A stretch of DNA of 64,000 nt, taken from the IMG/VR virus record IMGVR_UViG_2671180724_000008; one strand, 5' to 3'. The notes under the pieces were generated by a model. That model had not been told where the DNA came from. It worked only from the letters and a program-made list of their open reading frames with translations, and searched no databases. Made by a program: the position numbers and the translations under genes. Source of the DNA: a virus (taxonomy: Duplodnaviria > Heunggongvirae > Uroviricota > Caudoviricetes). Shown piece after piece: positions 1 through 59,490 of this stretch (the first letter of the stretch is position 1; every line of letters begins with the position of its first letter).

Positions 1-1473
1 TCTGAACACTTCTTCTTTGATCTGCCCTCTTTCAGCGAAATGTTGCAGGCATGGACCCGCAGCGGTGCGTTGCAGGAGCAGGTGGCAAACAAAATGCAGG
101 AGTGGTTTGAATCTGGTCTGCAACAGTGGGATATCTCCCGCGACGCACCTTACTTCGGTTTTGAAATTCCGAACGCGCCGGGTAAATATTTCTACGTCTG
201 GCTGGACGCACCGATTGGCTACATGGGTTCCTTCAAGAATCTGTGCGACAAGCGCGGCGACACTACCAGCTTTGATGAATACTGGAAGAAAGACTCCACC
301 GCCGAGCTGTACCACTTCATCGGTAAAGATATCGTTTACTTCCACAGCCTGTTCTGGCCTGCCATGCTGGAAGGCAGCAACTTCCGCAAGCCGACCAACC
401 TGTTTGTTCACGGCTATGTGACGGTGAACGGCGCGAAGATGTCCAAGTCTCGCGGCACCTTTATTAAAGCCAGCACCTGGTTGAATCATTTTGACGCTGA
501 CAGCCTGCGTTACTACTACACCGCCAAACTGTCTTCGCGCATTGATGATATCGATCTCAACCTGGAAGATTTCGTTCAGCGCGTGAATGCCGATATCGTG
601 AACAAAGTGGTTAACCTGGCCTCCCGTAATGCGGGCTTTATCAACAAACGTTTTGACGGCGTGCTGGCAAGCGAACTGGCTGACCCGCAACTGTACAAAA
701 CCTTTACTGATGCCGCTGAAGTGATTGGCGAAGCATGGGAAAGCCGCGAATTTGGTAAAGCTATCCGTGAAATCATGGCATTGGCTGACCTAGCTAACCG
801 CTATGTCGATGAACAGGCTCCGTGGGTGGTGGCGAAGCAGGAAGGACGCGATGCCGATCTGCAGGCGATTTGCTCTATGGGCATTAACCTGTTCCGCGTG
901 CTGATGACTTACCTGAAACCGGTACTGCCGAAACTGACAGAACGTGCGGAAGCATTCCTCAATACGGAACTGACTTGGGATGGCATCCAGCAACCGCTGC
1001 TGGGCCATAAAGTGAATCCGTTCAAAGCACTGTATAACCGTATCGACATGAAACAGGTGGAAGCATTGGTGGAAGCGTCTAAAGAAGAAGTGAAAGCTAC
1101 TGCCGCGCCAGTTACTGGCCCGCTGGCAGACGACCCGATTCAGGAAACCATCACCTTTGACGACTTTGCCAAAGTTGACCTGCGCGTGGCGCTGATCGAA
1201 AACGCAGAGTTTGTTGAAGGTTCTGACAAACTGCTGCGCCTGACGCTGGATCTCGGCGGTGAAAAACGCAATGTCTTCTCAGGCATCCGTTCCGCTTATC
1301 CAGACCCACAGGCACTGATTGGCCGTCACACCATTATGGTGGCTAACCTGGCTCCGCGTAAAATGCGTTTCGGTATCTCCGAAGGCATGGTGATGGCTGC
1401 TGGCCCCGGCGGGAAAGACATCTTCCTGTTAAGCCCGGATGCTGGTGCTAAACCTGGCCACCAGGTTAAGTAA
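1..1473 (+). CDS. metG: Methionyl-tRNA synthetase, C-terminal ~477 aa (5' end lies upstream of the window)
   Basis: Translation is recognisable as E. coli-type MetG (KMSKS motif present as KMSKSRGT; C-terminal tRNA-binding domain); the frame is open from base 1, so the gene is truncated by the window edge. Confidence 0.93.
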
Positions 1474-10348: not shown

Positions 10349-11908
10349 CTAATCTCGTTTCAGAACTCCAAAATCGAATGCTCCATCAATAGGCAATACA
10401 CCTTCTGCAAAGCCAGGTGTGGTGTCGATGATGTGTTTTCGCTCATAAGAGTGAGACAACAGGTATTTGTTGCTAATGTCAATGAAATCAGTGATAAAAC
10501 ACACGTTTGCCTGATTTTTTTTGGCTCGTAAGCCACGACCGACACGCTGCCTCATTTCAACTTCTGCTTTCCCACCACCAGCAAGAATGACCGCACCAAC
10601 GCTTGGCACATCAACACCGACATCCAGAATAGTCGAGCCTATTAAAACATCTATTTCTCCAGACGCTAAACTGTTCAGCTTTGCTTGCCTTGTCGCCTGG
10701 TTAGATTCCCCATAGATGAAGTCAACTCTAAGGCCGGACTCTTTCATCATTTCCATCAGGATTTGCCCGTGGCGTTTAAGACGAACCAGAGTCATACAAT
10801 TGAGAGAATGTTGCTTATAGAGCAATGCTTCGCGAACAATGGCCTCGTTACGTCCCAAATTATACACGATCCCCAACTGATAAGCCTTTTGGTAGGCGGT
10901 GCTCATACCAACTCTAAAATTGAGGTGTTTGTTGGCAAGTTCGGCCTTGATTCTGGCCTCGTCTGGCTTGTAGGCAACTTTATGATAAAGGAAGTACGGC
11001 TTTGCCAGAATGCCTCGATCAATCAGGTACTTTTCTGTGACTTTAATTTCAATTCGCCCGGCCACCGCCATCAGGCGCATGTTGGCTTCCGTCGAATCCT
11101 TCATGAACGGCGTGGCTGTAAGCGCCAGACGATAGTCTGCGTTCACACATAATCTGGCGATGTCATAGAAATTTGAGCCTGAAGACTCATGCGCCTCTTC
11201 CAGAATAAGAAGAGAGACACTTGAAAGGAAGCGTTTCACCAACTCCCGACGTTTGAGGTGGTAGCTTTTCTTATCTGGTGTTGCATCGCGTGGTGGTTCT
11301 TCGAGGAAACTTGCAAGAGTTTGAACTGTAGCGACGTTGATATGTCGTGATACCTGGAACTCACCCGAGCCAATGACTCCAACCTTTTGGTCTTTTAACC
11401 ACGGTTCGCCATTTTCGGCGCGGTAGTCGATGGATCTCTGGAAGTTTTCGGCCATTTGAAACATCAGAACAGAGCGGGTTGTTAAAAATAATGTCATTCG
11501 ACCGATACGTGCAGCTGCTTTGCAGGCAACGTTAGATTTCCCGCCACCAGTAGCGATCTGCGCAATCATCATTCCCTCTCGAACCAGTGTTTCCACAGTC
11601 TGATCCTGATACGCATAATCAGGATTGTATGGGAATGGGTTAACCGCCGGATTTGGTTTACCAAGCGCCGGGGCTTTGTCTTTGCGGATATGAACACATT
11701 TGATGCCCGCCTTGTTCAAGTTCGCCGCTACAGGCTTGGCAAAGCCAGCAGGGAACGAGTTTTTACTCCAGTTGAACATCGTGCTTGTGCCCTTCCAGTC
11801 GCCAGTCTCGACTTCGTAGCTCAACATTTGCTGCACCAGTTGCTTTACCTTGTCATCTGCGCCAGAAATAAGCGCATTTACTGCGTTAGATACAATCCGA
11901 ACAGTCAT
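10349..11908 (-). CDS. Superfamily-2 DEAD/DEAH-type DNA helicase
   Basis: Walker A ATGGGKS, DEAH-like LILEEAHE, LTATP motif III, C-terminal helicase domain with arginine-finger motif QRVGRGLR. Confidence 0.8.
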   Translation of the reverse strand: MTVRIVSNAVNALISGADDKVKQLVQQMLSYEVETGDWKGTSTMFNWSKNSFPAGFAKPVAANLNKAGIKCVHIRKDKAPALGKPNPAVNPFPYNPDYAYQDQTVETLVREGMMIAQIATGGGKSNVACKAAARIGRMTLFLTTRSVLMFQMAENFQRSIDYRAENGEPWLKDQKVGVIGSGEFQVSRHINVATVQTLASFLEEPPRDATPDKKSYHLKRRELVKRFLSSVSLLILEEAHESSGSNFYDIARLCVNADYRLALTATPFMKDSTEANMRLMAVAGRIEIKVTEKYLIDRGILAKPYFLYHKVAYKPDEARIKAELANKHLNFRVGMSTAYQKAYQLGIVYNLGRNEAIVREALLYKQHSLNCMTLVRLKRHGQILMEMMKESGLRVDFIYGESNQATRQAKLNSLASGEIDVLIGSTILDVGVDVPSVGAVILAGGGKAEVEMRQRVGRGLRAKKNQANVCFITDFIDISNKYLLSHSYERKHIIDTTPGFAEGVLPIDGAFDFGVLKRD

Positions 11909-11972: not shown

Positions 11973-11990
11973 GTGGATTGTAGCAATAAA

Positions 11991-12671
11991 ATGGATGTAA
12001 AAATCACGATTTTGCAGGTTGATGTTGCCAACCTTCGCCCGAATACCTGGAACACCAATTCGGTTGGTGCGCAGAATTTTGAAAAACTGAAAGGTTCTAT
12101 CGAAAAATTGGGCTTTTTTAAGCCAATTTTGGCTCGTGAACTTGAAGATGGATTTTTTGAAATCCTCGGCGGCGAACATCGCTGGCGTGCTGCTATTGAG
12201 CAAGGAATTTCAACGGTTCCGGTGCTTTCTGTGGGCAAAATTAGCGATGTCGTAGCTAAACAGATGTCACTGGTGGACAACGAGCGATACGGTGAAGACG
12301 ACCAAATCGCATTGCAACGCTTCATTGAAGAAATTCAGTCAGAACTTGACTATCAACTGTCTGAAATCGCCCCGTATGACGACGAAATCTCGATGGTTTT
12401 AGCAAAAGAGGCGGCAATCGACCTTGAAGCACTGGAGGCGTTGTCTCGTGGTAGTGATGAGCCTGTCGATACCGACAAACGAGAGAAAACCGAACGTGTG
12501 GGTGCGGAACATCAGACCATGCGCTTCAAAGTAACTTTCGATGCGTCAGATCGTGTTGCAGAAACCATAAAAAACATCATCAAAGAGCAGGCTATTAACA
12601 CCGGTAATGAAATGGAGAACGCTGGTGAGGCTCTGGTGTGGCTGGTCGACTACTACAAGGAGCGTATGTAA
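11991..12671 (+). CDS. ParB-like nuclease domain protein 1
   Basis: ParB N-terminal domain signature ILGGEHRWRAA; acidic C-terminus; alternative GTG start at 11973. Confidence 0.7.
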   Translation: MDVKITILQVDVANLRPNTWNTNSVGAQNFEKLKGSIEKLGFFKPILARELEDGFFEILGGEHRWRAAIEQGISTVPVLSVGKISDVVAKQMSLVDNERYGEDDQIALQRFIEEIQSELDYQLSEIAPYDDEISMVLAKEAAIDLEALEALSRGSDEPVDTDKREKTERVGAEHQTMRFKVTFDASDRVAETIKNIIKEQAINTGNEMENAGEALVWLVDYYKERM

Positions 12672-13339
12672 TGACCAAAAAGTTTGAAATCGTATATCGC
12701 GACCCGGCAGATCTTATTCCCTATGAGATGAATGCCAAAAAGCATGATGAACAGCAGATCCGAGATCTAGCCGCAGCCATTAAAAAGCGCGGATTTGACC
12801 AGCCAATTACGGTCGATAAGAACGACGTAATTATTACTGGCCACGGCCGCCGTGAGGCTGCAATTTTTGCTGGACTTGAGCGCGTACCGGTTATTGTTCG
12901 CGATGATCTCAGTGATGACGAGGTTCGTGCGAAGCGCCTTGAAGATAACCGACTTGCCAGCATTGATTACGATGCAATTAAGCTACAGAAAGAGCTTGAG
13001 TCGCTTGTTCTGGACGATATCGAGGTTTTCGGCTTTGAAGAGCGTGAGTTGAATGTTCTCGTTGGCAGTATGACAGAAGAAATGGACACCGACTCGCTAG
13101 TTATCGATCTTGGCGAAGAAACTAAACGACAGAAGGATGAACACACCGAGATCAGTCGTGAAGTTGCAGCGGAAGAAGTACGTGTTGTCGACGTATTGGG
13201 CTTTAAAACGCTCCCTGCTGGCTCTGCCATTGTTGTTGGTGATTTGCTTGCCCACATGGAAGAAATGACGGGAGAAAGCGGGGTAGACGCATTTGTGGCA
13301 TATGCGGAGAAGATCTCTTCCGGGGAGATGGCTGCATGA
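12671..13339 (+). CDS. ParB-like nuclease domain protein 2
   Basis: ITGHGRREAA motif; aaggag RBS; ATG overlaps upstream stop (taATG). Confidence 0.7.
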   Translation: MTKKFEIVYRDPADLIPYEMNAKKHDEQQIRDLAAAIKKRGFDQPITVDKNDVIITGHGRREAAIFAGLERVPVIVRDDLSDDEVRAKRLEDNRLASIDYDAIKLQKELESLVLDDIEVFGFEERELNVLVGSMTEEMDTDSLVIDLGEETKRQKDEHTEISREVAAEEVRVVDVLGFKTLPAGSAIVVGDLLAHMEEMTGESGVDAFVAYAEKISSGEMAA

Positions 13340-15188: not shown

Positions 15189-15243
15189 CCTGCTTCTGTA
15201 TATATAAATAATAAGTAACTTATTAAATATATACGGAAGCAGG
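15189..15243. repeat. 55-bp composite palindrome, copy 1 (17-bp GC-anchored arms cctgcttcYgtatatat around an AT-rich core containing aataagtaacttatt)
   Basis: Read directly; second copy at 47394-47448 in inverted orientation judged by flank match gtcttt(t)aaa. Confidence 0.85.
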
Positions 15244-15279: not shown

Positions 15280-15322
15280 AGAAAACAAGTTGGTTAGAAA
15301 ATGCAGTAAACAAGTTGTTTTA
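15280..15322 (+). promoter_or_regulatory. Two operator motifs (agaaaacaagttggtta; gtaaacaagttgtttta) upstream of the terminase operon
   Basis: Members of the GAAAACAA..TTGTTT family. Confidence 0.5.
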
Positions 15323-44137: not shown

Positions 44138-44521
44138 ATGCTGAACGAAAAACGTTCTATACAAACAATTCGCGATTGCACGAGTGTTATCGCAACTCAT
44201 GTGCTGAATAAGCGCAAACTTGAGGTGCGTAAACTTAACAACGATGCGACTGCGCCAAAAGACACTCGCTTCATCGTAACTTTCAAAGACGATGTTGAGA
44301 ATGCTGGTGCCAGTGTAAAACCGTTGGCTGAAGCGATTTTCCTGAACGATCGTGTTCGTTTCATTGTGAAGCCAGCAAAACAATACCCTGAATTAGCACG
44401 GTTTAGTGACCAATTCTCTGAAATTATTGAGAGTGCAATTCGCCGCTTTCTTAATACTCATGGTAGCATTGTCAGCAATACAACTGCTGATGGTACTGCT
44501 CTAAGATGGCACCTACACTAG
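44138..44521 (+). CDS. Hypothetical protein
   Basis: 127-aa ORF after lysis cassette. Confidence 0.5.
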   Translation: MLNEKRSIQTIRDCTSVIATHVLNKRKLEVRKLNNDATAPKDTRFIVTFKDDVENAGASVKPLAEAIFLNDRVRFIVKPAKQYPELARFSDQFSEIIESAIRRFLNTHGSIVSNTTADGTALRWHLH

Positions 44522-45258
44522 AACGCACATACTCTAAAAATCTTTATGAGTTTCCTCACCGTGGGGAAACTCGCGTTTCACGTTTTGGCTACCTCATCAA
44601 CGAAGCATCGCTTTTCAAAATATCTGAAATAACCATTATCGAGCCTGATGATGATATCTGTCTGTATATCCTGATGGAGAAAGTTGGAGCACGAGATCAG
44701 GGTGAACTGATGGACTTCATTCTGGACAGAGGCGAAGATGGAATGTCTGATTCGGACATTATTCAAGCAATTCTGCGTTCCGACATGCTCGATCAGAGCA
44801 GAAACACGATAGCAGGCAGAATTGCATTGCGTGAATACACATTCATCGAGGATGGGGTAGAGATTGACTGCTATCAGATTGCAGGTGTTGAAACAGAAAG
44901 AGCAATAAGGCAAAGGGGACTGTGCAACCTCACGTATCGCTTCCTCCTTCATTGGTACGAACATCTTGTCTGTGATTACAATCAGACCATTCCTGGCGCA
45001 AAAATCTGGGCCGGTCCATTAATGCGAACAGGTGATGTAAGAATTTACAACGCAAAAACTGAGACGTTCGAGGATGTGTTAGGCGAATATGGGATGGGAA
45101 AAGAAACCGGCTTTTTGCCGTGGAACAGAGGATTGTTACTTGATCCAGAATTAAGCTCTTGGTTTCCAAATAAGGTGCAAGTTAACGTTGAGAAATTTAT
45201 CGTACTTATCATCTCCCGCAAAACAAGAACCCCAGTTGGTTTATATCTAAAAGATTAA
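44506..45258 (+). CDS. Hypothetical protein
   Basis: 250-aa ORF; no recognisable motif. Confidence 0.5.
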   Translation: MAPTLERTYSKNLYEFPHRGETRVSRFGYLINEASLFKISEITIIEPDDDICLYILMEKVGARDQGELMDFILDRGEDGMSDSDIIQAILRSDMLDQSRNTIAGRIALREYTFIEDGVEIDCYQIAGVETERAIRQRGLCNLTYRFLLHWYEHLVCDYNQTIPGAKIWAGPLMRTGDVRIYNAKTETFEDVLGEYGMGKETGFLPWNRGLLLDPELSSWFPNKVQVNVEKFIVLIISRKTRTPVGLYLKD

Positions 45259-45382: not shown

Positions 45383-45399
45383 AAGAAAACAAGTTGTTT
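45383..45399 (+). promoter_or_regulatory. Operator motif agaaaacaagttgtttc upstream of parA-like gene
   Basis: Member of the early operator family. Confidence 0.5.
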
Positions 45400-45434: not shown

Positions 45435-46103
45435 ATGACCAAGATCTTTGTGGTTGGCGGCACAAAGGGCGGGCCTGGCAAATCCACTGTTGCCCAGCAA
45501 ATTGCCGTTTGCCTGAAAGTCAAAAAGAAGAAGAAGGTTTATATCACTGATATAGATATTCAGCGCACGACAACAAGCTGGTGTGAAGACCGTCGACAGA
45601 ACGAAGACCTTGAGCTGATTCCTTTTGCCTACGTTCAGGATGACATCATTAAGCACCTAAAATCGCTTCAGGGTAGAGCTGAGTTTGTAGTGGTAGATGC
45701 TGGTGGCTTTGACTCCGAAATTCAGCGACAAGCGATGCTGATGGCCGACGTTATCATTATCCCGCTGCGTCCTAAGCGTCGTGATTTGAAATCTCTGCGT
45801 GACATCGATCCTATTATCGACAATGTTCGTAATGTAAACGATAAAGTGAAGGTCCGCGCGGTCATGAACCAGTGCCCGGCTTTGCCATCACAAGTGTCTC
45901 GCATTCTGGCGGCTAAAGAGATTGTCGAGACGTTTGGCATCGAGTCTGCGCCAGTCAATCTATATAACCGCAACGTCTACGATGATGCGGAAGAGTCTGG
46001 TCGTTCTATCTTCGAAATGACCGGTAGCGAGCGCGACAAAAAGGCTGAAGCCGAGTTTGAAGAATTTGTAGATTATCTGTTGAGTCTGGAGGAAGAAGAA
46101 TAA
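45435..46103 (+). CDS. ParA/MinD-family partition ATPase
   Basis: Deviant Walker A GGTKGGPGKST; small ParA size typical of type Ib partition systems. Confidence 0.8.
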   Translation: MTKIFVVGGTKGGPGKSTVAQQIAVCLKVKKKKKVYITDIDIQRTTTSWCEDRRQNEDLELIPFAYVQDDIIKHLKSLQGRAEFVVVDAGGFDSEIQRQAMLMADVIIIPLRPKRRDLKSLRDIDPIIDNVRNVNDKVKVRAVMNQCPALPSQVSRILAAKEIVETFGIESAPVNLYNRNVYDDAEESGRSIFEMTGSERDKKAEAEFEEFVDYLLSLEEEE

Positions 46104-46462
46104 TGTCCATGAAAATGGGTGACCTAGCAAAGCGCAAAGAGCCTGATGCACCGGCTAAGAACACAACTCCTTTGCGCCAACCAGTCAGACCACAGGGACG
46201 CCCGACTCGTGGCAAAGAGAAAATTAAGAGCCGCACGATGTCACTGGAGGACGAATACTTCGAACTGCTGGAGATGATGAAGTTCATCCCTCGTTTCGAG
46301 AAATTCACCCGTTCAGACGTGATTCGCGCAGCCATTTTCCATCTGGCAGAGAAGTCACCGCAGGAAATCGAGGACATCGTGAAACTTAACGAGGCGATCA
46401 CAGCTGCCGATGTCACGATGCGTACCGATGAAATCAAACGAGAGTTGATGAAAAAAGGTTAA
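46103..46462 (+). CDS. Ribbon-helix-helix centromere-binding partner (ParG-like)
   Basis: Basic disordered N-terminus, C-terminal RHH-like segment; ATGT overlap with parA-like stop. Confidence 0.55.
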   Translation: MSMKMGDLAKRKEPDAPAKNTTPLRQPVRPQGRPTRGKEKIKSRTMSLEDEYFELLEMMKFIPRFEKFTRSDVIRAAIFHLAEKSPQEIEDIVKLNEAITAADVTMRTDEIKRELMKKG

Positions 46463-46466
46463 AAAT

Positions 46467-46500
46467 CATGCATTGGCGCAATGTACGCGCCAATGCATGA
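46467..46500. repeat. Perfect 14-bp inverted repeat tcatgcattggcgc / gcgccaatgcatga (7-nt loop) between convergent genes
   Basis: Read directly; A-run upstream makes it a plausible terminator for the minus-strand gene. Confidence 0.7.
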
Positions 46501-46514
46501 CTACAGTGTCAGCT

Positions 46515-47282
46515 TTATGCCGCGCTAACACTATGTTCAGTCCTAACCACCCCAACCTTCACAAAAGGGCTACCGTAGCTTGGTGGCTTCTTGATTAATT
46601 TGCCTACATACAGTTTTCTAATATGCTCATCGGCTATTCTGCCAACAAATTCATAACGTTTTGTGTCGGGGCCAAGAGCTATATCCCTTGTAAAGTACTG
46701 CTGAGAACCGGCTTTGACCCAGCATTCAATCCGATAAACTTCCATTATCAGCCCACCATATGTAGCGTAGGCATATTTGAGATTCTCGTCTCTTGGAACC
46801 TTTGCCCATACGCCACGCGTAGCTTCATATAATGCCAGAGCGGACATTCCTGACTTGTAGGTGCTGTTTAGCAGGAAGGCAAGACCGGCGTGCTCAGGAG
46901 CAATTTCAGTTTCCTCTTGCAGCACTAAGTGATGGTAGGCGTCCAGTGATATTCTGCCCATCATGGAACCACTTCCTCGTACCTTATTCGTAAGCTCTCC
47001 GACCCCCATAAGGTCGATGCATGTCGCCTCAACAAGTTTGGCTGTGGTTTCATCCATACCATGACGAAGTATATCTATGCCTAATTTTTTATTAGCCAAA
47101 AGTTCTTTGATCCGCATGGATTTGGGAGAGTCATCGGGATACTTGATGTGATCGAGACAACGAGTCGATTTGCCTTTTCCTATGTAAAACGGTCTTTTCA
47201 TCTTGTCTTCTGTATCATAGAGACAGTAAACATAGTATTTAGCCTTATCCAATGATCTCGCGTATACCGATAAATCGTCCAT
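46515..47282 (-). CDS. GIY-YIG nuclease family protein
   Basis: N-terminal YYVYCLYD...FYIGKGKSTR matches the GIY-YIG motif; only minus-strand gene within ~35 kb of plus-strand genes. Confidence 0.65.
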   Translation of the reverse strand: MDDLSVYARSLDKAKYYVYCLYDTEDKMKRPFYIGKGKSTRCLDHIKYPDDSPKSMRIKELLANKKLGIDILRHGMDETTAKLVEATCIDLMGVGELTNKVRGSGSMMGRISLDAYHHLVLQEETEIAPEHAGLAFLLNSTYKSGMSALALYEATRGVWAKVPRDENLKYAYATYGGLIMEVYRIECWVKAGSQQYFTRDIALGPDTKRYEFVGRIADEHIRKLYVGKLIKKPPSYGSPFVKVGVVRTEHSVSAA

Positions 47283-47393
47283 TATTGCATCTCTTAGCTA
47301 CTGACTAATGCGTTCTATTTTACACATAAGTTTTTAATCAATTTAACAGGCTCAAAGTGTAGAGCTTCTGGGCGTCTAAGACGACAAGTTATG

Positions 47394-47448
47394 CCTGCTT
47401 CCGTATATATAAATAATAAGTAACTTATTAAATATATACAGAAGCAGG
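47394..47448. repeat. 55-bp composite palindrome, copy 2
   Basis: cctgcttccgtatatataaataataagtaacttattaaatatatacagaagcagg followed by tcttttaaaag; matches copy 1 at 15189-15243. Confidence 0.85.
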
Positions 47449-48305: not shown

Positions 48306-48313
48306 CTAATACT

Positions 48314-48330
48314 AGAAAACAATTTGTTTA
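48314..48330 (+). promoter_or_regulatory. Operator motif agaaaacaatttgttta upstream of helicase gene
   Basis: Member of the early operator family. Confidence 0.5.
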
Positions 48331-56453: not shown

Positions 56454-57788
56454 TCATGCCAAATTATCCAGATTTCTTTTCTTTTTTTCAATTATATTTC
56501 TCGCGCCAGAAAAAATTTTACTCAAAATAATTGATTTGCTTGCTCTATTATTAAGATGTAACAACGCGCTATAAAATACATAGTTATCTATTTTACTATT
56601 TAAAGTATTCCCAAGCTTCCCGTTATATGTGCTATTAATAGTATTAAAATATACATGTTCAGGACCTATATTACAAATACCCCTATCAACTCGCTTTAAA
56701 TAATGTTTAACTAAAGAAATAGCATCTTCCTTATCATTAATAACATAAAGTCCTGAGCGTTTACCTAGCTTGCTGTCCGAGAATAATTTATAACCAACAA
56801 GTTCATTTAACGTATTATCCACTTTTGTCAACTCTTTGTTGGCAATCTCCAAATAATACTCAATCTCTTTCTCCATATTACTTATTAAAGAGTTAAATTC
56901 TGCTCGTAACAAATCACCACCAGGTGATTTATAACTCCATAAAATTGAATTGGTAATACGTACTACGTCAGATACTTCTGGTTTCTCTGAATAGTTTTTG
57001 TATCTAGTGCAAATAATGCTGTGCTTTATATATTCTCTAACTAATGATCGATAATCCCTTTCGAAAAGGTTTTTGACATCTAGTCTTCCATTGCTTGTTG
57101 TTATTAAGGTGGTGTTTAAAACTGGGTCGCCTTCAAAAAAATTATATTTATTTAGTAATCGTTTTAGCTTGTGTGAATTATGTGATGTTTCGCCATAATA
57201 ATTTATCCCAAAAATAGCAATTATTAGCATAACATCAGGAGTGATGAAATGTCGTAATTGCTCGGCATAAACTTTTTTATCTTCGATTTTCGAAGATGGA
57301 GAGTAAAAACCTTTGTCTATATATTCTAATATTGAAACAATATTACTAACATAACGTATAAAAACTTGATTCATTACAACGGAATCATAAACCTGATGCA
57401 AATAATCTACTCTCAAGTTGTTTTTTATTTTTTCCCCTGTACTAGATGATAACTCTTCTTTTACCTGCCCAAGTAGCTTTTCGTGGTGCTCCAGCAATGT
57501 TTTAAACCATTGTTCAAATGATGATTTTCTTGCCTCAGTTAATGAATCTGATGTTATCTGGACAGCTTTCATAGCTGCTTTCGCACTTTTCTTTGCTTCA
57601 TAAGCGTTCCATGCTGAAGCACAAAAAGCTGCCGCCGTGATGCAACTGGTAAAAATAGAAATCCTATCTGCAACATTCAAGCTCCAGAACCAATCAGACG
57701 ATGAAATCAAAACCACAGATATTACGGGAACAATGAAAATCAAAACAGGCATGTATGTACTCGCTCTAATAGTTATTAGTCGAGGCAA
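56454..57788 (-). CDS. Low-GC 444-aa membrane-anchored protein of unknown function (candidate abortive-infection or defence cargo)
   Basis: Two N-terminal transmembrane segments then a large Lys/Asn/Tyr/Ile-rich soluble domain; strongly AT-rich codon usage unlike the rest of the element; own promoter and terminator. Confidence 0.6.
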   Translation of the reverse strand: MPRLITIRASTYMPVLIFIVPVISVVLISSSDWFWSLNVADRISIFTSCITAAAFCASAWNAYEAKKSAKAAMKAVQITSDSLTEARKSSFEQWFKTLLEHHEKLLGQVKEELSSSTGEKIKNNLRVDYLHQVYDSVVMNQVFIRYVSNIVSILEYIDKGFYSPSSKIEDKKVYAEQLRHFITPDVMLIIAIFGINYYGETSHNSHKLKRLLNKYNFFEGDPVLNTTLITTSNGRLDVKNLFERDYRSLVREYIKHSIICTRYKNYSEKPEVSDVVRITNSILWSYKSPGGDLLRAEFNSLISNMEKEIEYYLEIANKELTKVDNTLNELVGYKLFSDSKLGKRSGLYVINDKEDAISLVKHYLKRVDRGICNIGPEHVYFNTINSTYNGKLGNTLNSKIDNYVFYSALLHLNNRASKSIILSKIFSGARNIIEKKKRNLDNLA

Positions 57789-58386: not shown

Positions 58387-59490
58387 ATGAAAAATAGCTT
58401 TGACAGAGCACGCGCTGCGGAGAACACCTCAAAAGAGGCGATTGAGTATCTCGAAAGAGCATCTCAAATGCAGGCCGTTATGATCTCGCAGGTTAGCAAT
58501 GACATGAGATTCTCGGACGCATTCATGTTATTCACTCGCTTATCTCTGCTTATAACCAGACGTCGGCCAGAGATCGCTGTTCATTGTATTTTGATACATG
58601 TTTTGCCGCACATTGCTGATGTAAAAGTAAGTGACATTAATAGGTTCATGGTGAACCAACTGGTAAACCCACTAATACTGGATGGCAAAATTGTTATGGG
58701 CCGCCGCGTTTTCTCTCTGATGAAGCAGTTCCTTAGCTGGTGCGCCTTCCAGGGGATGATAGACGTGTCACCGTTAAACGATATGTCACTAAACAAAGTT
58801 GCCGGTGGCGCAAAGCCCACACCTCGCGAGCGGAAGCTGACCGACGCAGAGGTATGGGTGTTCTGGAATATATGGGACTACTTCAATGTGTGCGCTGGTA
58901 CAAAATGGGCGGCCAGGCTGTGTCTTGTATCAGCAAGACGACCTGACGAAGTACTGCGGGCTAAAAAAAGTGAGTTCAATCTTAAGCGTGGGGTTTGGAA
59001 TCAAGGCAAGAGAAACAAGTCAGCACGTGAGCATTCGCTGCCTTTAAGCACATTAATGCGCACATGCATTGAAGAGTTGTTCGAATACGGTAAAGACAGC
59101 CAGTGGCTCGTGCCTTCGAATAAAAAAATCGGGAAAGACCTTCCTATGTCTAAAGTGGCAATAGCCCAGGCATTACGTCGTATTCTGGAACGACCAGAAC
59201 TGATGGAGCTTGAGCCATTTACACCCCGAGATTTGCGCCGTACTGCGCGTAGTTACTTCCCAGCATTAGGCATAAGCCAGGAGGTATCACGCAAAATCAT
59301 GAACCACAGTCTTGAGGGGATAGATCGGGTCTACGACCGGCACGATTATATGGACGAGATGCGAGACGCCTTAGAAAGTTTCTCGACGTACATCGCATCA
59401 ATCGTAGAGCAACCGGATTTAGACGAAATTGACCACAAATTCAAGGGAGATCGTCTATCAACAGAGCTTATTCGTGTAAATTTTTCATAG
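58387..59490 (+). CDS. Tyrosine integrase (site-specific recombinase)
   Basis: C-terminal catalytic pattern: Arg in RRPDEV, HSLEGIDRVYDRHDY region with His/Arg and terminal Tyr; 367 aa. Confidence 0.85.
   Translation: MKNSFDRARAAENTSKEAIEYLERASQMQAVMISQVSNDMRFSDAFMLFTRLSLLITRRRPEIAVHCILIHVLPHIADVKVSDINRFMVNQLVNPLILDGKIVMGRRVFSLMKQFLSWCAFQGMIDVSPLNDMSLNKVAGGAKPTPRERKLTDAEVWVFWNIWDYFNVCAGTKWAARLCLVSARRPDEVLRAKKSEFNLKRGVWNQGKRNKSAREHSLPLSTLMRTCIEELFEYGKDSQWLVPSNKKIGKDLPMSKVAIAQALRRILERPELMELEPFTPRDLRRTARSYFPALGISQEVSRKIMNHSLEGIDRVYDRHDYMDEMRDALESFSTYIASIVEQPDLDEIDHKFKGDRLSTELIRVNFS

What the first reader, a model, noticed from the sequence alone, without database searches (positions are those of the whole stretch)
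46467..47282. Minus-strand GIY-YIG nuclease gene inserted between the partition pair and the replication module
This is the only minus-strand gene in a ~35-kb stretch of plus-strand genes. Its N-terminus (YYVYCLYD...FYIGKGKSTRCLDH) matches the GIY-YIG catalytic motif; the ~150-aa C-terminal region is unassigned. It is followed by a perfect 14-bp inverted-repeat terminator (46467-46500) and preceded by copy 2 of the 55-bp palindrome. Free-standing GIY-YIG genes in phages are typically homing endonucleases, but GIY-YIG domains also occur as defence or exclusion effectors.
Basis: partly seen in the sequence, partly recalled or inferred. Interest (0 to 1): 0.6.

Follow-up and report, generated by a model that had tools for sequence, protein, structure and literature searches.

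The report
Phage-plasmid gene for modified-DNA restriction nuclease
The lone backward-facing gene in this SSU5-like phage-plasmid is a divergent member of the known PD-T4-3/CMoRE family, nucleases that cut the modified DNA of T4-like phages, and it sits in a swappable cargo slot; it is not a homing endonuclease, so the finding is real but fairly ordinary.

Summary
A 255-aa minus-strand ORF (46515-47282) has a GIY-YIG N-terminus. A perfect 14-bp hairpin (46466-46500) follows it, and a 55-bp palindrome (47394-47448) lies upstream.

The window is an SSU5-like E. coli phage-plasmid, 98% identical here to phage PhiR41_1. The protein matches PD-T4-3/CMoRE over its full length. CMoRE is a single-gene type IV restriction enzyme shown in 2026 to cut 5hmC/glucosyl-hmC DNA of T-even phages.
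- PADLOC profile: E 1.6e-23.
- Profile-profile comparison: 99.8% probability across both domains.

The GIYxY-YIG tyrosines and the catalytic Arg, Glu and Asn are invariant in its clade. That clade is separate from the tested enzymes (23-33% identity). Its acidic autoinhibitory loop is shorter, and CMoRE's invariant Tyr127 is not conserved.

The gene is accessory cargo, present in 106 of 247 E. coli genomes that carry the backbone. Relatives have the slot empty or filled with unrelated cassettes, two of which match candidate defence families.

The homing-endonuclease reading is not supported. The defence reading is. DefenseFinder surveys have already reported PD-T4-3 in SSU5-group phage-plasmids. 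Specificity of this clade is untested.

The parts
46515..47282 (-). [quoted passage not shown]
46971..47249 (-). [quoted passage not shown]
46548..46955 (-). C-terminal domain (about aa 110-245), homologous to the CMoRE modification-sensing domain
46466..46500 (-). Perfect 14-bp stem, 7-nt loop hairpin followed by UUUUU on the minus strand. Likely an intrinsic terminator of the nuclease gene, and it abuts the stop codon of the convergent parB-like gene.
   Evidence: dG -28.5 kcal/mol, z -7.2. The simple terminator scan did not list it. Its function is inferred.
47283..47363 (-). Cassette-borne upstream region: SD AAGAG 47291-47295, and a weak promoter-like TTAAAT (47341-47346) - 18 nt - TAAAAT (47317-47322)
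   Evidence: Read from the sequence. It is not picked up by the consensus scan, so the promoter is inferred only.
46463..47393 (.). Variable cargo segment (cassette) of the slot between the parB-like stop codon and the backbone palindrome
   Evidence: Alignment with PhiR41_1 and Cyrano. Junction comparison across 7 relatives, including an empty site.
47394..47448 (.). 55-bp imperfect palindrome. It is conserved backbone, forms the right boundary of the slot, and is followed by TCTTTT on the plus strand.
   Evidence: The second copy is at 15189-15243.
46103..46462 (+). 119-aa partner gene of ParA (parB-like, no Pfam hit). Its stop codon is the left boundary of the slot.

Best explanation
The gene encodes a divergent PD-T4-3/CMoRE-family enzyme. 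[quoted passage not shown]

**Proposed mechanism, by homology.** The C-terminal domain binds DNA that carries hypermodified bases. The most likely targets are the 5-hydroxymethyl- and glucosyl-hydroxymethyl-cytosine of T-even phages. The N-terminal GIY-YIG domain then cleaves that DNA. Unmodified host and phage-plasmid DNA is spared.

**Genomic role.** The gene is a self-contained cassette, with its own upstream region and terminator, transcribed against the flanking operons. It sits in a recombination-exchangeable cargo slot between the partition genes and the replication module of an SSU5-like phage-plasmid. Expressed from the resident plasmid-prophage, it would protect the lysogen, and so the element, from superinfecting T4-like phages.

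**Shown here:** family membership by sequence and fold, intact catalytic residues, accessory status, and the slot architecture.

**Inferred:** substrate specificity, expression in the lysogen, and the protective phenotype.
For: **Family membership.**
- PADLOC PD-T4-3 profile: E 1.6e-23, 81.6 bits, near full length.
- phmmer to the CMoRE crystal structures 9U7U/9U75: E 2e-15, aa 12-230.
- 32% identity over 237 aa to APEC O1 CMoRE.
- Profile-profile comparison: 99.8% probability, E 1e-27, 214 columns covering both domains.
- Y17/Y19/Y33 (GIYxY-YIG), R41, E85 and N99 are invariant in 51 clade members.

**Function of the family, from papers.**
- It cleaves 5hmC/5ghmC DNA, gives about 1e5-fold protection against T2/T4/T6, and acts by direct defence rather than abortive infection (PMC12923530).
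- A homologue 48% identical to PD-T4-3 from Capnocytophaga is also modification-dependent (PMC12366544).
- It is active in a native E. coli host (10.1101/2024.12.20.629700).

**Accessory cargo.**
- The cassette is in 106 of the 247 complete E. coli genomes that carry the backbone flank, and always on plasmids.
- The slot is empty in CP027369.
- In relatives it holds DUF2971/PDC-S31, KAP-NTPase/PDC-S49 or unknown genes.
- Each cassette has its own hairpin directly after the parB-like stop.

**Prior report.** DefenseFinder has reported PD-T4-3 in SSU5-group phage-plasmids of E. coli and Shigella (10.1101/2025.09.12.675607).
Against: No member of this clade has been tested.
- Identity to the characterised enzymes is only 23-33%.
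- The acidic autoinhibitory alpha2-alpha3 loop is about 5 residues shorter and has only two adjacent acidic residues, against DDDD/DDDE in the crystallised enzymes.
- Tyr127, invariant in the CMoRE clade and located at the 5hmC contact, aligns with a variable position (V119) here.
- The tetramer-interface residue L96 aligns with an invariant Cys here.
- No convincing sigma-70 promoter was found by the consensus scan.
- There is no expression or phenotype evidence.
- The global TM-score to the crystal structures is low, 0.37-0.40. This could reflect a different domain orientation, which I did not test.
Confidence: 0.72

Rival explanations
1. Same fold and mechanism (a modification-dependent GIY-YIG nuclease), but this clade recognises a different modified base or phage group than 5hmC/5ghmC. 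Candidates are modified adenines, arabinosyl-hmC or other hypermodifications. It may also control self-toxicity differently, because the acidic safety-catch loop is reduced.
For: - It is a separate clade at 23-33% identity.
- CMoRE-invariant Y127 is not conserved.
- The alpha2-alpha3 loop is shortened.
- PD-T4-3Capno already shows plasticity: it also cuts Mu DNA carrying carbamoylmethyl-adenine (PMC12366544).
- PD-T4-3 does not hit all Tevenvirinae genera.
Against: - Core conserved residues of the C-terminal domain are shared between the two clades.
- The 5hmC contact at Y127 is made by the main chain, so side-chain loss need not change specificity.
- In the metagenomic selection screen, PD-T4-3 homologues were almost always associated with restricting T4 but not unmodified T4-GT7.
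Confidence: 0.2
2. A free-standing GIY-YIG homing endonuclease. It would cut the empty parB-rep intergenic site of related phage-plasmids and spread its own gene by recombinational repair.
For: - It is a free-standing GIY-YIG gene in a phage genome, opposite in orientation to its neighbours.
- An empty cognate site exists in a close relative.
- The gene is patchily distributed, in 43% of backbones.
Against: - The C-terminal domain is homologous to the CMoRE sensing domain. No NUMOD, IENR1, HTH or zinc-finger DNA-binding module is found.
- The I-TevI similarity is no better than that to UvrC or EndoII, so it is only the generic fold.
- Homologues at 73-76% identity are solitary chromosomal genes next to guaA or mutS in Salmonella and Providencia.
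- The same slot carries at least five unrelated cassettes, each with its own hairpin. This fits exchange by flanking homology rather than nuclease-driven homing.
Confidence: 0.03
3. A structure-specific or housekeeping nuclease (LEM-3/SLX1/UvrC-like) that serves the element's own replication, partition or recombination, as its position between par and rep genes might suggest.
For: - The best Pfam name is LEM-3-like GIY-YIG.
- It is adjacent to the par and rep modules and to a cruciform-capable palindrome.
Against: - The gene is absent from 57% of E. coli backbones, and the slot can be empty, so it is dispensable for maintenance.
- The Pfam match is to the nuclease subdomain only.
- The full-length homology is to a restriction enzyme.
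Confidence: 0.03

Closest known systems
CMoRE / PD-T4-3 (E. coli O157:H7 and APEC O1; PDB 9U75, 9U7U, 9U7Z, 9U8D; Liu et al., Nat Commun 2026, PMC12923530; originally PD-T4-3 from E. coli ECOR68)
   Same: - Single-gene system of about 255 aa.
- N-terminal GIY-YIG domain with the extra tyrosine (GIYxY-YIG) and the catalytic Arg, Glu and Asn.
- Homologous C-terminal sensing domain.
- Matched by the PADLOC PD-T4-3 profile.
- These structures are the top structural match.
   Different: - Only 23-33% identity, in a separate clade.
- The alpha2-alpha3 acidic loop is about 5 aa shorter, with 2 rather than 4 consecutive acidic residues.
- Y127 is not conserved, and L96 aligns with Cys.
- It is carried on a phage-plasmid, whereas the tested genes were cloned from bacterial strains.
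- Its activity is untested.
PD-T4-3Capno (Capnocytophaga homologue; Rodriguez-Rodriguez et al. 2025, PMC12366544)
   Same: A divergent family member shown to be a modification-dependent nuclease. It shows that function is kept across wide divergence.
   Different: That protein is 48% identical to PD-T4-3, whereas the window protein is about 30%. It also cuts Mu DNA, so specificity within the family is plastic.
Other type IV restriction enzymes carried by prophages and mobile elements, such as McrA on prophage e14 and GmrSD (from my own knowledge, not tested here)
   Same: A temperate element carries a modification-dependent nuclease that excludes hmC-containing T-even phages and so benefits the lysogen.
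   Different: They use unrelated nuclease folds (HNH, DUF262/DUF1524) and unrelated sensing domains.
Defence hotspots of temperate phages and satellites, such as the P2/P4 hotspots (PMC13586616 listed; not read in detail)
   Same: A fixed intergenic position flanked by conserved core genes holds interchangeable defence cassettes.
   Different: Here the slot lies between the partition pair and the replication module of an SSU5-like phage-plasmid. It is bounded by the parB-like stop codon and a 55-bp palindrome. Only some of the alternative cargo is recognisably defensive.
GIY-YIG homing endonucleases (I-TevI, Seg proteins)
   Different: It has no sequence-specific DNA-binding C-terminal modules. 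Homologues are chromosomal solitary genes. The site holds many unrelated cassettes.

Membership tests
PD-T4-3 / CMoRE type IV restriction endonucleases | Significant near-full-length match to the family profile | tested here: met
   PADLOC PDLC04031: E 1.6e-23, 81.6 bits, protein aa 11-231, profile 11-238 of 256. hhalign clade versus clade: 99.8% probability, E 1e-27.
PD-T4-3 / CMoRE type IV restriction endonucleases | Single-component, two-domain 'type I' architecture: N-terminal GIY-YIG plus C-terminal sensing domain, about 250-260 aa | tested here: met
   The protein is 255 aa. Both domains align to 9U7U/9U75. Chromosomal homologues are solitary genes.
PD-T4-3 / CMoRE type IV restriction endonucleases | 'GIYxY-YIG' motif with a third tyrosine | tested here: met
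   Y17-V-Y19 ... F-Y33-I-G aligns to CMoRE Y17/Y19/Y31. All three tyrosines are invariant in 51 clade members.
PD-T4-3 / CMoRE type IV restriction endonucleases | Catalytic Arg and Glu (and metal-site Asn) of the GIY-YIG fold | tested here: met
   R41, E85 and N99 are invariant. They align to the invariant R39, E93 and N105 of the CMoRE clade.
PD-T4-3 / CMoRE type IV restriction endonucleases | Inserted negatively charged autoinhibitory loop between alpha2 and alpha3 (present in 'most' members according to the paper) | tested here: inconclusive
   The window has HIKYPDDSPKS, against HMRGEVAAVDDDELLNNK in CMoRE. It is 5 aa shorter with 2 adjacent acidic residues. The R41-L61 segment has median length 21 and 3 acidic residues in the window clade, against 24 and 5 in the CMoRE clade.
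PD-T4-3 / CMoRE type IV restriction endonucleases | Fold of both domains matches the crystal structures | tested here: met
   [not shown]
PD-T4-3 / CMoRE type IV restriction endonucleases | 5hmC-contact residue Tyr127 (main-chain O contact; invariant in the CMoRE clade) | tested here: not met
   Y127 is invariant in A4. It aligns to V119 of the window protein, a variable column in its clade. Because the contact is through the main chain, this does not exclude the same specificity.
PD-T4-3 / CMoRE type IV restriction endonucleases | Modification-dependent cleavage (5hmC/5ghmC) and protection against T-even phages | not testable with these tools
   This needs plaque assays and in vitro nuclease assays.
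PD-T4-3 / CMoRE type IV restriction endonucleases | Tetrameric assembly needed for function (V92/L96 interface) | not tested
   Only the alignment was inspected: V92 aligns to V84 (kept), and L96 aligns to C88, which is invariant in this clade. No multimer was modelled.
GIY-YIG homing endonucleases (I-TevI/Seg type) | C-terminal sequence-specific DNA-binding modules (NUMOD, IENR1, HTH, Zn finger) tethered to the catalytic domain | tested here: not met
   There is no Pfam hit other than PF22945 at E<=1. The C-terminal domain is homologous to the CMoRE sensing domain.
GIY-YIG homing endonucleases (I-TevI/Seg type) | Gene present/absent polymorphism at one cognate site, with homologues confined to phages or introns | tested here: not met
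   An empty site exists. However, the same site holds at least 5 unrelated cassettes. Homologues at 73-76% identity are solitary chromosomal genes.
LEM-3/ANKLE1-like GIY-YIG nucleases (Pfam PF22945 name) | PF22945 nuclease domain together with ankyrin and LEM domains | tested here: not met
   Only the nuclease subdomain matches (30.1 bits, aa 32-104). No ankyrin or LEM domain is present. The Pfam name describes the domain subfamily, not the protein.

The most novel reading that the evidence does not exclude
The window protein represents an uncharacterised sister clade of CMoRE. This clade has a reduced acidic safety-catch loop and an altered sensing site. It could recognise a different spectrum of hypermodified phage DNA, or discriminate self from non-self in a different way. 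The parB-rep slot of SSU5-like phage-plasmids, bounded by a hairpin and a palindrome, could be a previously undescribed defence hotspot. Its unannotated cassettes (the 352-aa gene in CP024271 and the 250+140-aa pair in AP023200) would then be new defence genes.
Probability: 0.25. Interest if true: 0.5.

Novelty: new member of a known kind. Interest (0 to 1): 0.27.

Why it matters
- **Annotation.** A widespread 'hypothetical' or 'LEM-3-like GIY-YIG' protein gets a concrete, testable function. The cassette that encodes it is in about 2% of complete E. coli genomes and 124 PLSDB plasmids, and the protein matches phrog_5356 ('unknown function') over its full length.
- **Phage therapy.** SSU5-like phage-plasmids are common in clinical E. 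coli and Shigella. They would equip their hosts with a restriction enzyme against T4-like phages, which matters for choosing therapeutic phages.
- **Gene discovery.** The exchangeable slot offers a short list of unannotated neighbouring cassettes as defence-gene candidates.
- **Enzymology.** The divergent clade could broaden the toolbox of hmC-specific nucleases used in epigenomics.
- **Overall.** None of this is conceptually new.

Tried and rejected
- **NCBIfam** gave no hit.
- **The consensus promoter/terminator scan** found neither a promoter for the gene nor the hairpin. I therefore read the promoter by eye and mark it as inferred.
- **A possible self-modification conflict.** PhiR41_1 annotates a 'DNA modification methylase' in the element. 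The corresponding window ORFs (11973-13339) only carry ParB_N domains, so there is no evidence the element modifies its own DNA.
- **The cassette fragment elsewhere.** The cassette query also hits a second place in many records. One example (CP107722) is a 156-bp remnant cut by IS26 in a mosaic plasmid and is not informative. I did not inspect the second places in the phage-plasmid records themselves.
- **Target-site duplications or mobility genes at the cassette ends.** I found none. The boundaries are the parB-like stop codon and the palindrome.
- **Alternative cargo.** The unknown-function cassettes in L006, L007 and SSU5 gave no PADLOC or Pfam hits.
- **The homing-endonuclease and housekeeping-nuclease readings** were considered and rejected, as set out under the rival explanations.
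- **Searches not run.** I did not run the 1.84-billion-protein representative search or AFDB fold searches, because family assignment was already unambiguous.

Full report
**1. Observation**

The ORF at 46515-47282 on the minus strand is real: 255 aa, ATG start, with an AAGAG Shine-Dalgarno 8 nt upstream.

A perfect inverted repeat lies 14 nt past its stop codon. The arms are 14 bp (46466-46479 and 46487-46500) and the loop is 7 nt. Folded as minus-strand RNA it gives -28.5 kcal/mol (z = -7.2) and is followed by UUUUU. On the plus strand no U-run follows it. I therefore read it as the intrinsic terminator of the minus-strand gene. It abuts the stop codon of the convergent parB-like gene, which ends at 46462.

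The 55-bp imperfect palindrome at 47394-47448 is confirmed. A second copy lies at 15189-15243, where 0 matches are expected by chance.

The claim that this is the only minus-strand gene in about 35 kb is borne out by independent annotation. In the 98%-identical phage PhiR41_1, every CDS over about 37.8 kb is on the plus strand except this one.

**2. What the element is**

The window is an SSU5-like phage-plasmid of E. coli.
- Its closest phage records are Escherichia phages PhiR41_1, CMS-2020a and Cyrano (about 98% identity), then Salmonella phage SSU5 (82%).
- 703 PLSDB plasmids, mostly non-mobilizable, match the par/rep flanks.
- Upstream of the gene are a ParA-type ATPase and its 119-aa partner.
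- Downstream are a 249-aa protein, a DnaB-like helicase, a primase and an ATP-dependent ligase.

**3. What the protein is**

Pfam sees only a LEM-3-like GIY-YIG nuclease domain (aa 32-104, 30.1 bits against a cutoff of 27). PHROGs places the whole protein in phrog_5356, 'unknown function' (E 2e-99). Four other lines of evidence identify the family.
- **Defence profile.** The PADLOC model for PD-T4-3 matches aa 11-231 at E 1.6e-23.
- **Solved structures by sequence.** The only PDB sequences matched are 9U7U/9U7Z/9U75/9U8D (E 2e-15, aa 12-230), so the match covers both domains.
[quoted passage not shown] - It binds and degrades 5hmC- and glucosyl-5hmC-DNA.
   - It protects about 1e5-fold against T2/T4/T6 without abortive infection.
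   - It cuts at CN11/N9G.
   - It has a 'GIYxY-YIG' motif, an acidic autoinhibitory loop and a novel C-terminal sensing domain.

The global TM-score is only 0.37-0.40. This could be a difference in domain orientation across the linker, which the paper describes as flexible. I did not test that.

**4. Catalytic competence and clade position**

In the 51-sequence alignment, Y17, Y19, Y33, G35, G37, R41, H45, E85 and N99 are invariant. They align to CMoRE Y17/Y19/Y31/R39/E93/N105. Profile-profile comparison of the window clade with 35 CMoRE-clade sequences gives 99.8% probability, E 1e-27, over 214 columns spanning both domains.

The two clades are nevertheless distinct. Identity is at least 48% within each clade and 23-33% between them. 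Three differences stand out.
- **Acidic loop.** The alpha2-alpha3 loop is about 5 residues shorter. It has two adjacent acidic residues (PDDS) instead of DDDD/DDDE.
- **Tyr127.** This residue is invariant in the CMoRE clade and its main-chain oxygen contacts the 5-hydroxyl of 5hmC. It aligns with a variable position (V119) here.
- **Tetramer interface.** Interface residue L96 aligns with an invariant Cys here.

Family membership is therefore secure. Identical specificity and regulation are not.

**5. Genomic status: cargo in an exchangeable slot**

Alignment with PhiR41_1 (same cassette) and Cyrano (different cassette) shows where identity breaks. It is lost exactly at the parB-like stop codon and resumes at the first base of the palindrome. 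The slot exists in at least seven states.

| Element | Slot content |
|---|---|
| Window, PhiR41_1 | Minus-strand CMoRE-like gene |
| Cyrano | Plus-strand DUF2971 gene, PADLOC candidate system PDC-S31 (E 3e-41); CP101923 is also annotated DUF2971 here |
| SSU5 | Three plus-strand genes, including another DUF2971/PDC-S31 |
| CP053233 | Fragmented KAP-family NTPase, PDC-S49 (E 1e-22) |
| CP024271 | Unknown 352-aa minus-strand gene |
| AP023200 | Unknown 250+140-aa gene pair |
| CP027369 | Empty: 30 nt separate the parB-like stop from the palindrome |

Each of the five filled cassettes whose junctions I compared begins with its own perfect hairpin directly after the parB-like stop.

Among 5,426 complete E. 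coli genomes, 247 carry the backbone flank and 106 (43%) carry this cassette. It is always on plasmids and never on chromosomes. In PLSDB, 124 records carry it.

I found no transposase, integrase or target-site duplication at the ends. Exchange by homologous recombination in the conserved flanks is the simplest inference.

**6. Against homing**

- The protein lacks the DNA-binding modules of GIY-YIG homing enzymes.
- Its C-terminal half is the CMoRE sensing domain.
- Its homologues at 73-76% identity are solitary chromosomal genes between housekeeping genes: near guaA/guaB in Salmonella and near mutS in Providencia.
- The site is occupied by many unrelated cassettes.

Even so, the positive evidence points to restriction rather than homing.

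**7. Mechanism proposed**

*Shown:* the family, the fold, the catalytic residues, and the self-contained cassette architecture.

*Inferred:* the gene is expressed from the resident plasmid-prophage. The protein binds hypermodified cytosine DNA of incoming T-even-type phages through its C-terminal domain. The GIY-YIG domain then cuts that DNA, and unmodified host and element DNA is spared. I found no evidence that the element modifies its own DNA. The 'methylase' annotated in PhiR41_1 is only a ParB_N-domain protein.

This makes the gene a lysogenic-conversion or superinfection-defence gene, comparable in logic to other type IV enzymes carried on prophages (my own knowledge).

**8. Novelty**

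PD-T4-3 was discovered in 2022 and mechanistically solved in 2026. DefenseFinder hits to PD-T4-3 in SSU5-group phage-plasmids of E. coli and Shigella have already been reported (10.1101/2025.09.12.675607).

Three things are not described in what I could read:
- the clade-level divergence of this protein;
- the reduced safety-catch loop;
- the defined parB-rep slot with its hairpin-headed cassettes.

These are incremental. My verdict is a new, untested member of a known kind, of modest interest.

Noticed in passing
window 46480-46486 vs L001 (PhiR41_1) 2653-2659: The 7-nt loop of the terminator hairpin is AATGTAC in the window and its exact reverse complement, GTACATT, in PhiR41_1. The 14-bp arms are identical. 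This is a loop flip between inverted repeats.
   Followed up: no
window 15189-15243 and 47394-47448; L004 1351-1405: The two copies of the 55-bp palindrome, and those in relatives, differ by swapped arm mismatches (CCG..CAG vs CTG..CGG). In the empty-slot plasmid the palindrome lies 30 nt after the parB-like stop and is followed by TCTTTT. It may therefore be the native terminator of the partition operon and a recombination boundary.
   Followed up: partly
window 45385-45399, 48313-48329, 15286-15316: A near-palindromic motif, AAACAAGTTGTTT, recurs upstream of parA, upstream of the DnaB-like helicase, and twice just after palindrome copy 1. It is a candidate shared operator for one regulator.
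   Followed up: no
L002 2632-3435; L003 2637-4549; L005 1380-3075; L006 1389-2447; L007 1380-2547: The same slot in relatives carries other cargo: DUF2971 proteins (PADLOC candidate PDC-S31), a fragmented KAP NTPase (PDC-S49), an unknown 352-aa gene, and an unknown 250+140-aa pair. The unknown ones are candidate new defence genes. In the five cassettes compared, each starts with its own perfect hairpin after the parB-like stop.
   Followed up: partly
window 44138-45258 (upstream of parA): This region is also variable. It is not matched at megablast level in PhiR41_1 in the same place, and Cyrano has a KacT acetyltransferase toxin/antitoxin pair there. It may be a second cargo slot on the other side of the partition genes.
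   Followed up: no
[not shown]
   Followed up: no
window 56454-57788 (-) and 58387-59490 (+): Another minus-strand gene (444 aa) has a borderline Pfam match to a putative AbiC abortive-infection domain: 21.7 bits against a cutoff of 22, with no PADLOC hit. It sits next to a tyrosine-recombinase gene.
   Followed up: partly
window 10349-11908 (-): A 519-aa DEAD/ResIII helicase matches PADLOC PbeA models (E 6.6e-23) over its helicase part. It may simply be a replication or recombination helicase.
   Followed up: no
window 40-1473 (+): This is the C-terminal part of a methionyl-tRNA synthetase gene that runs off the window start. It is also annotated in Cyrano and PhiR41_1, so it is a conserved feature of this phage-plasmid group.
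   Followed up: partly
window 11973-13339 (+): These are two adjacent ParB_N-domain proteins. One is annotated 'DNA modification methylase' in PhiR41_1, but no methyltransferase domain was found.
   Followed up: partly
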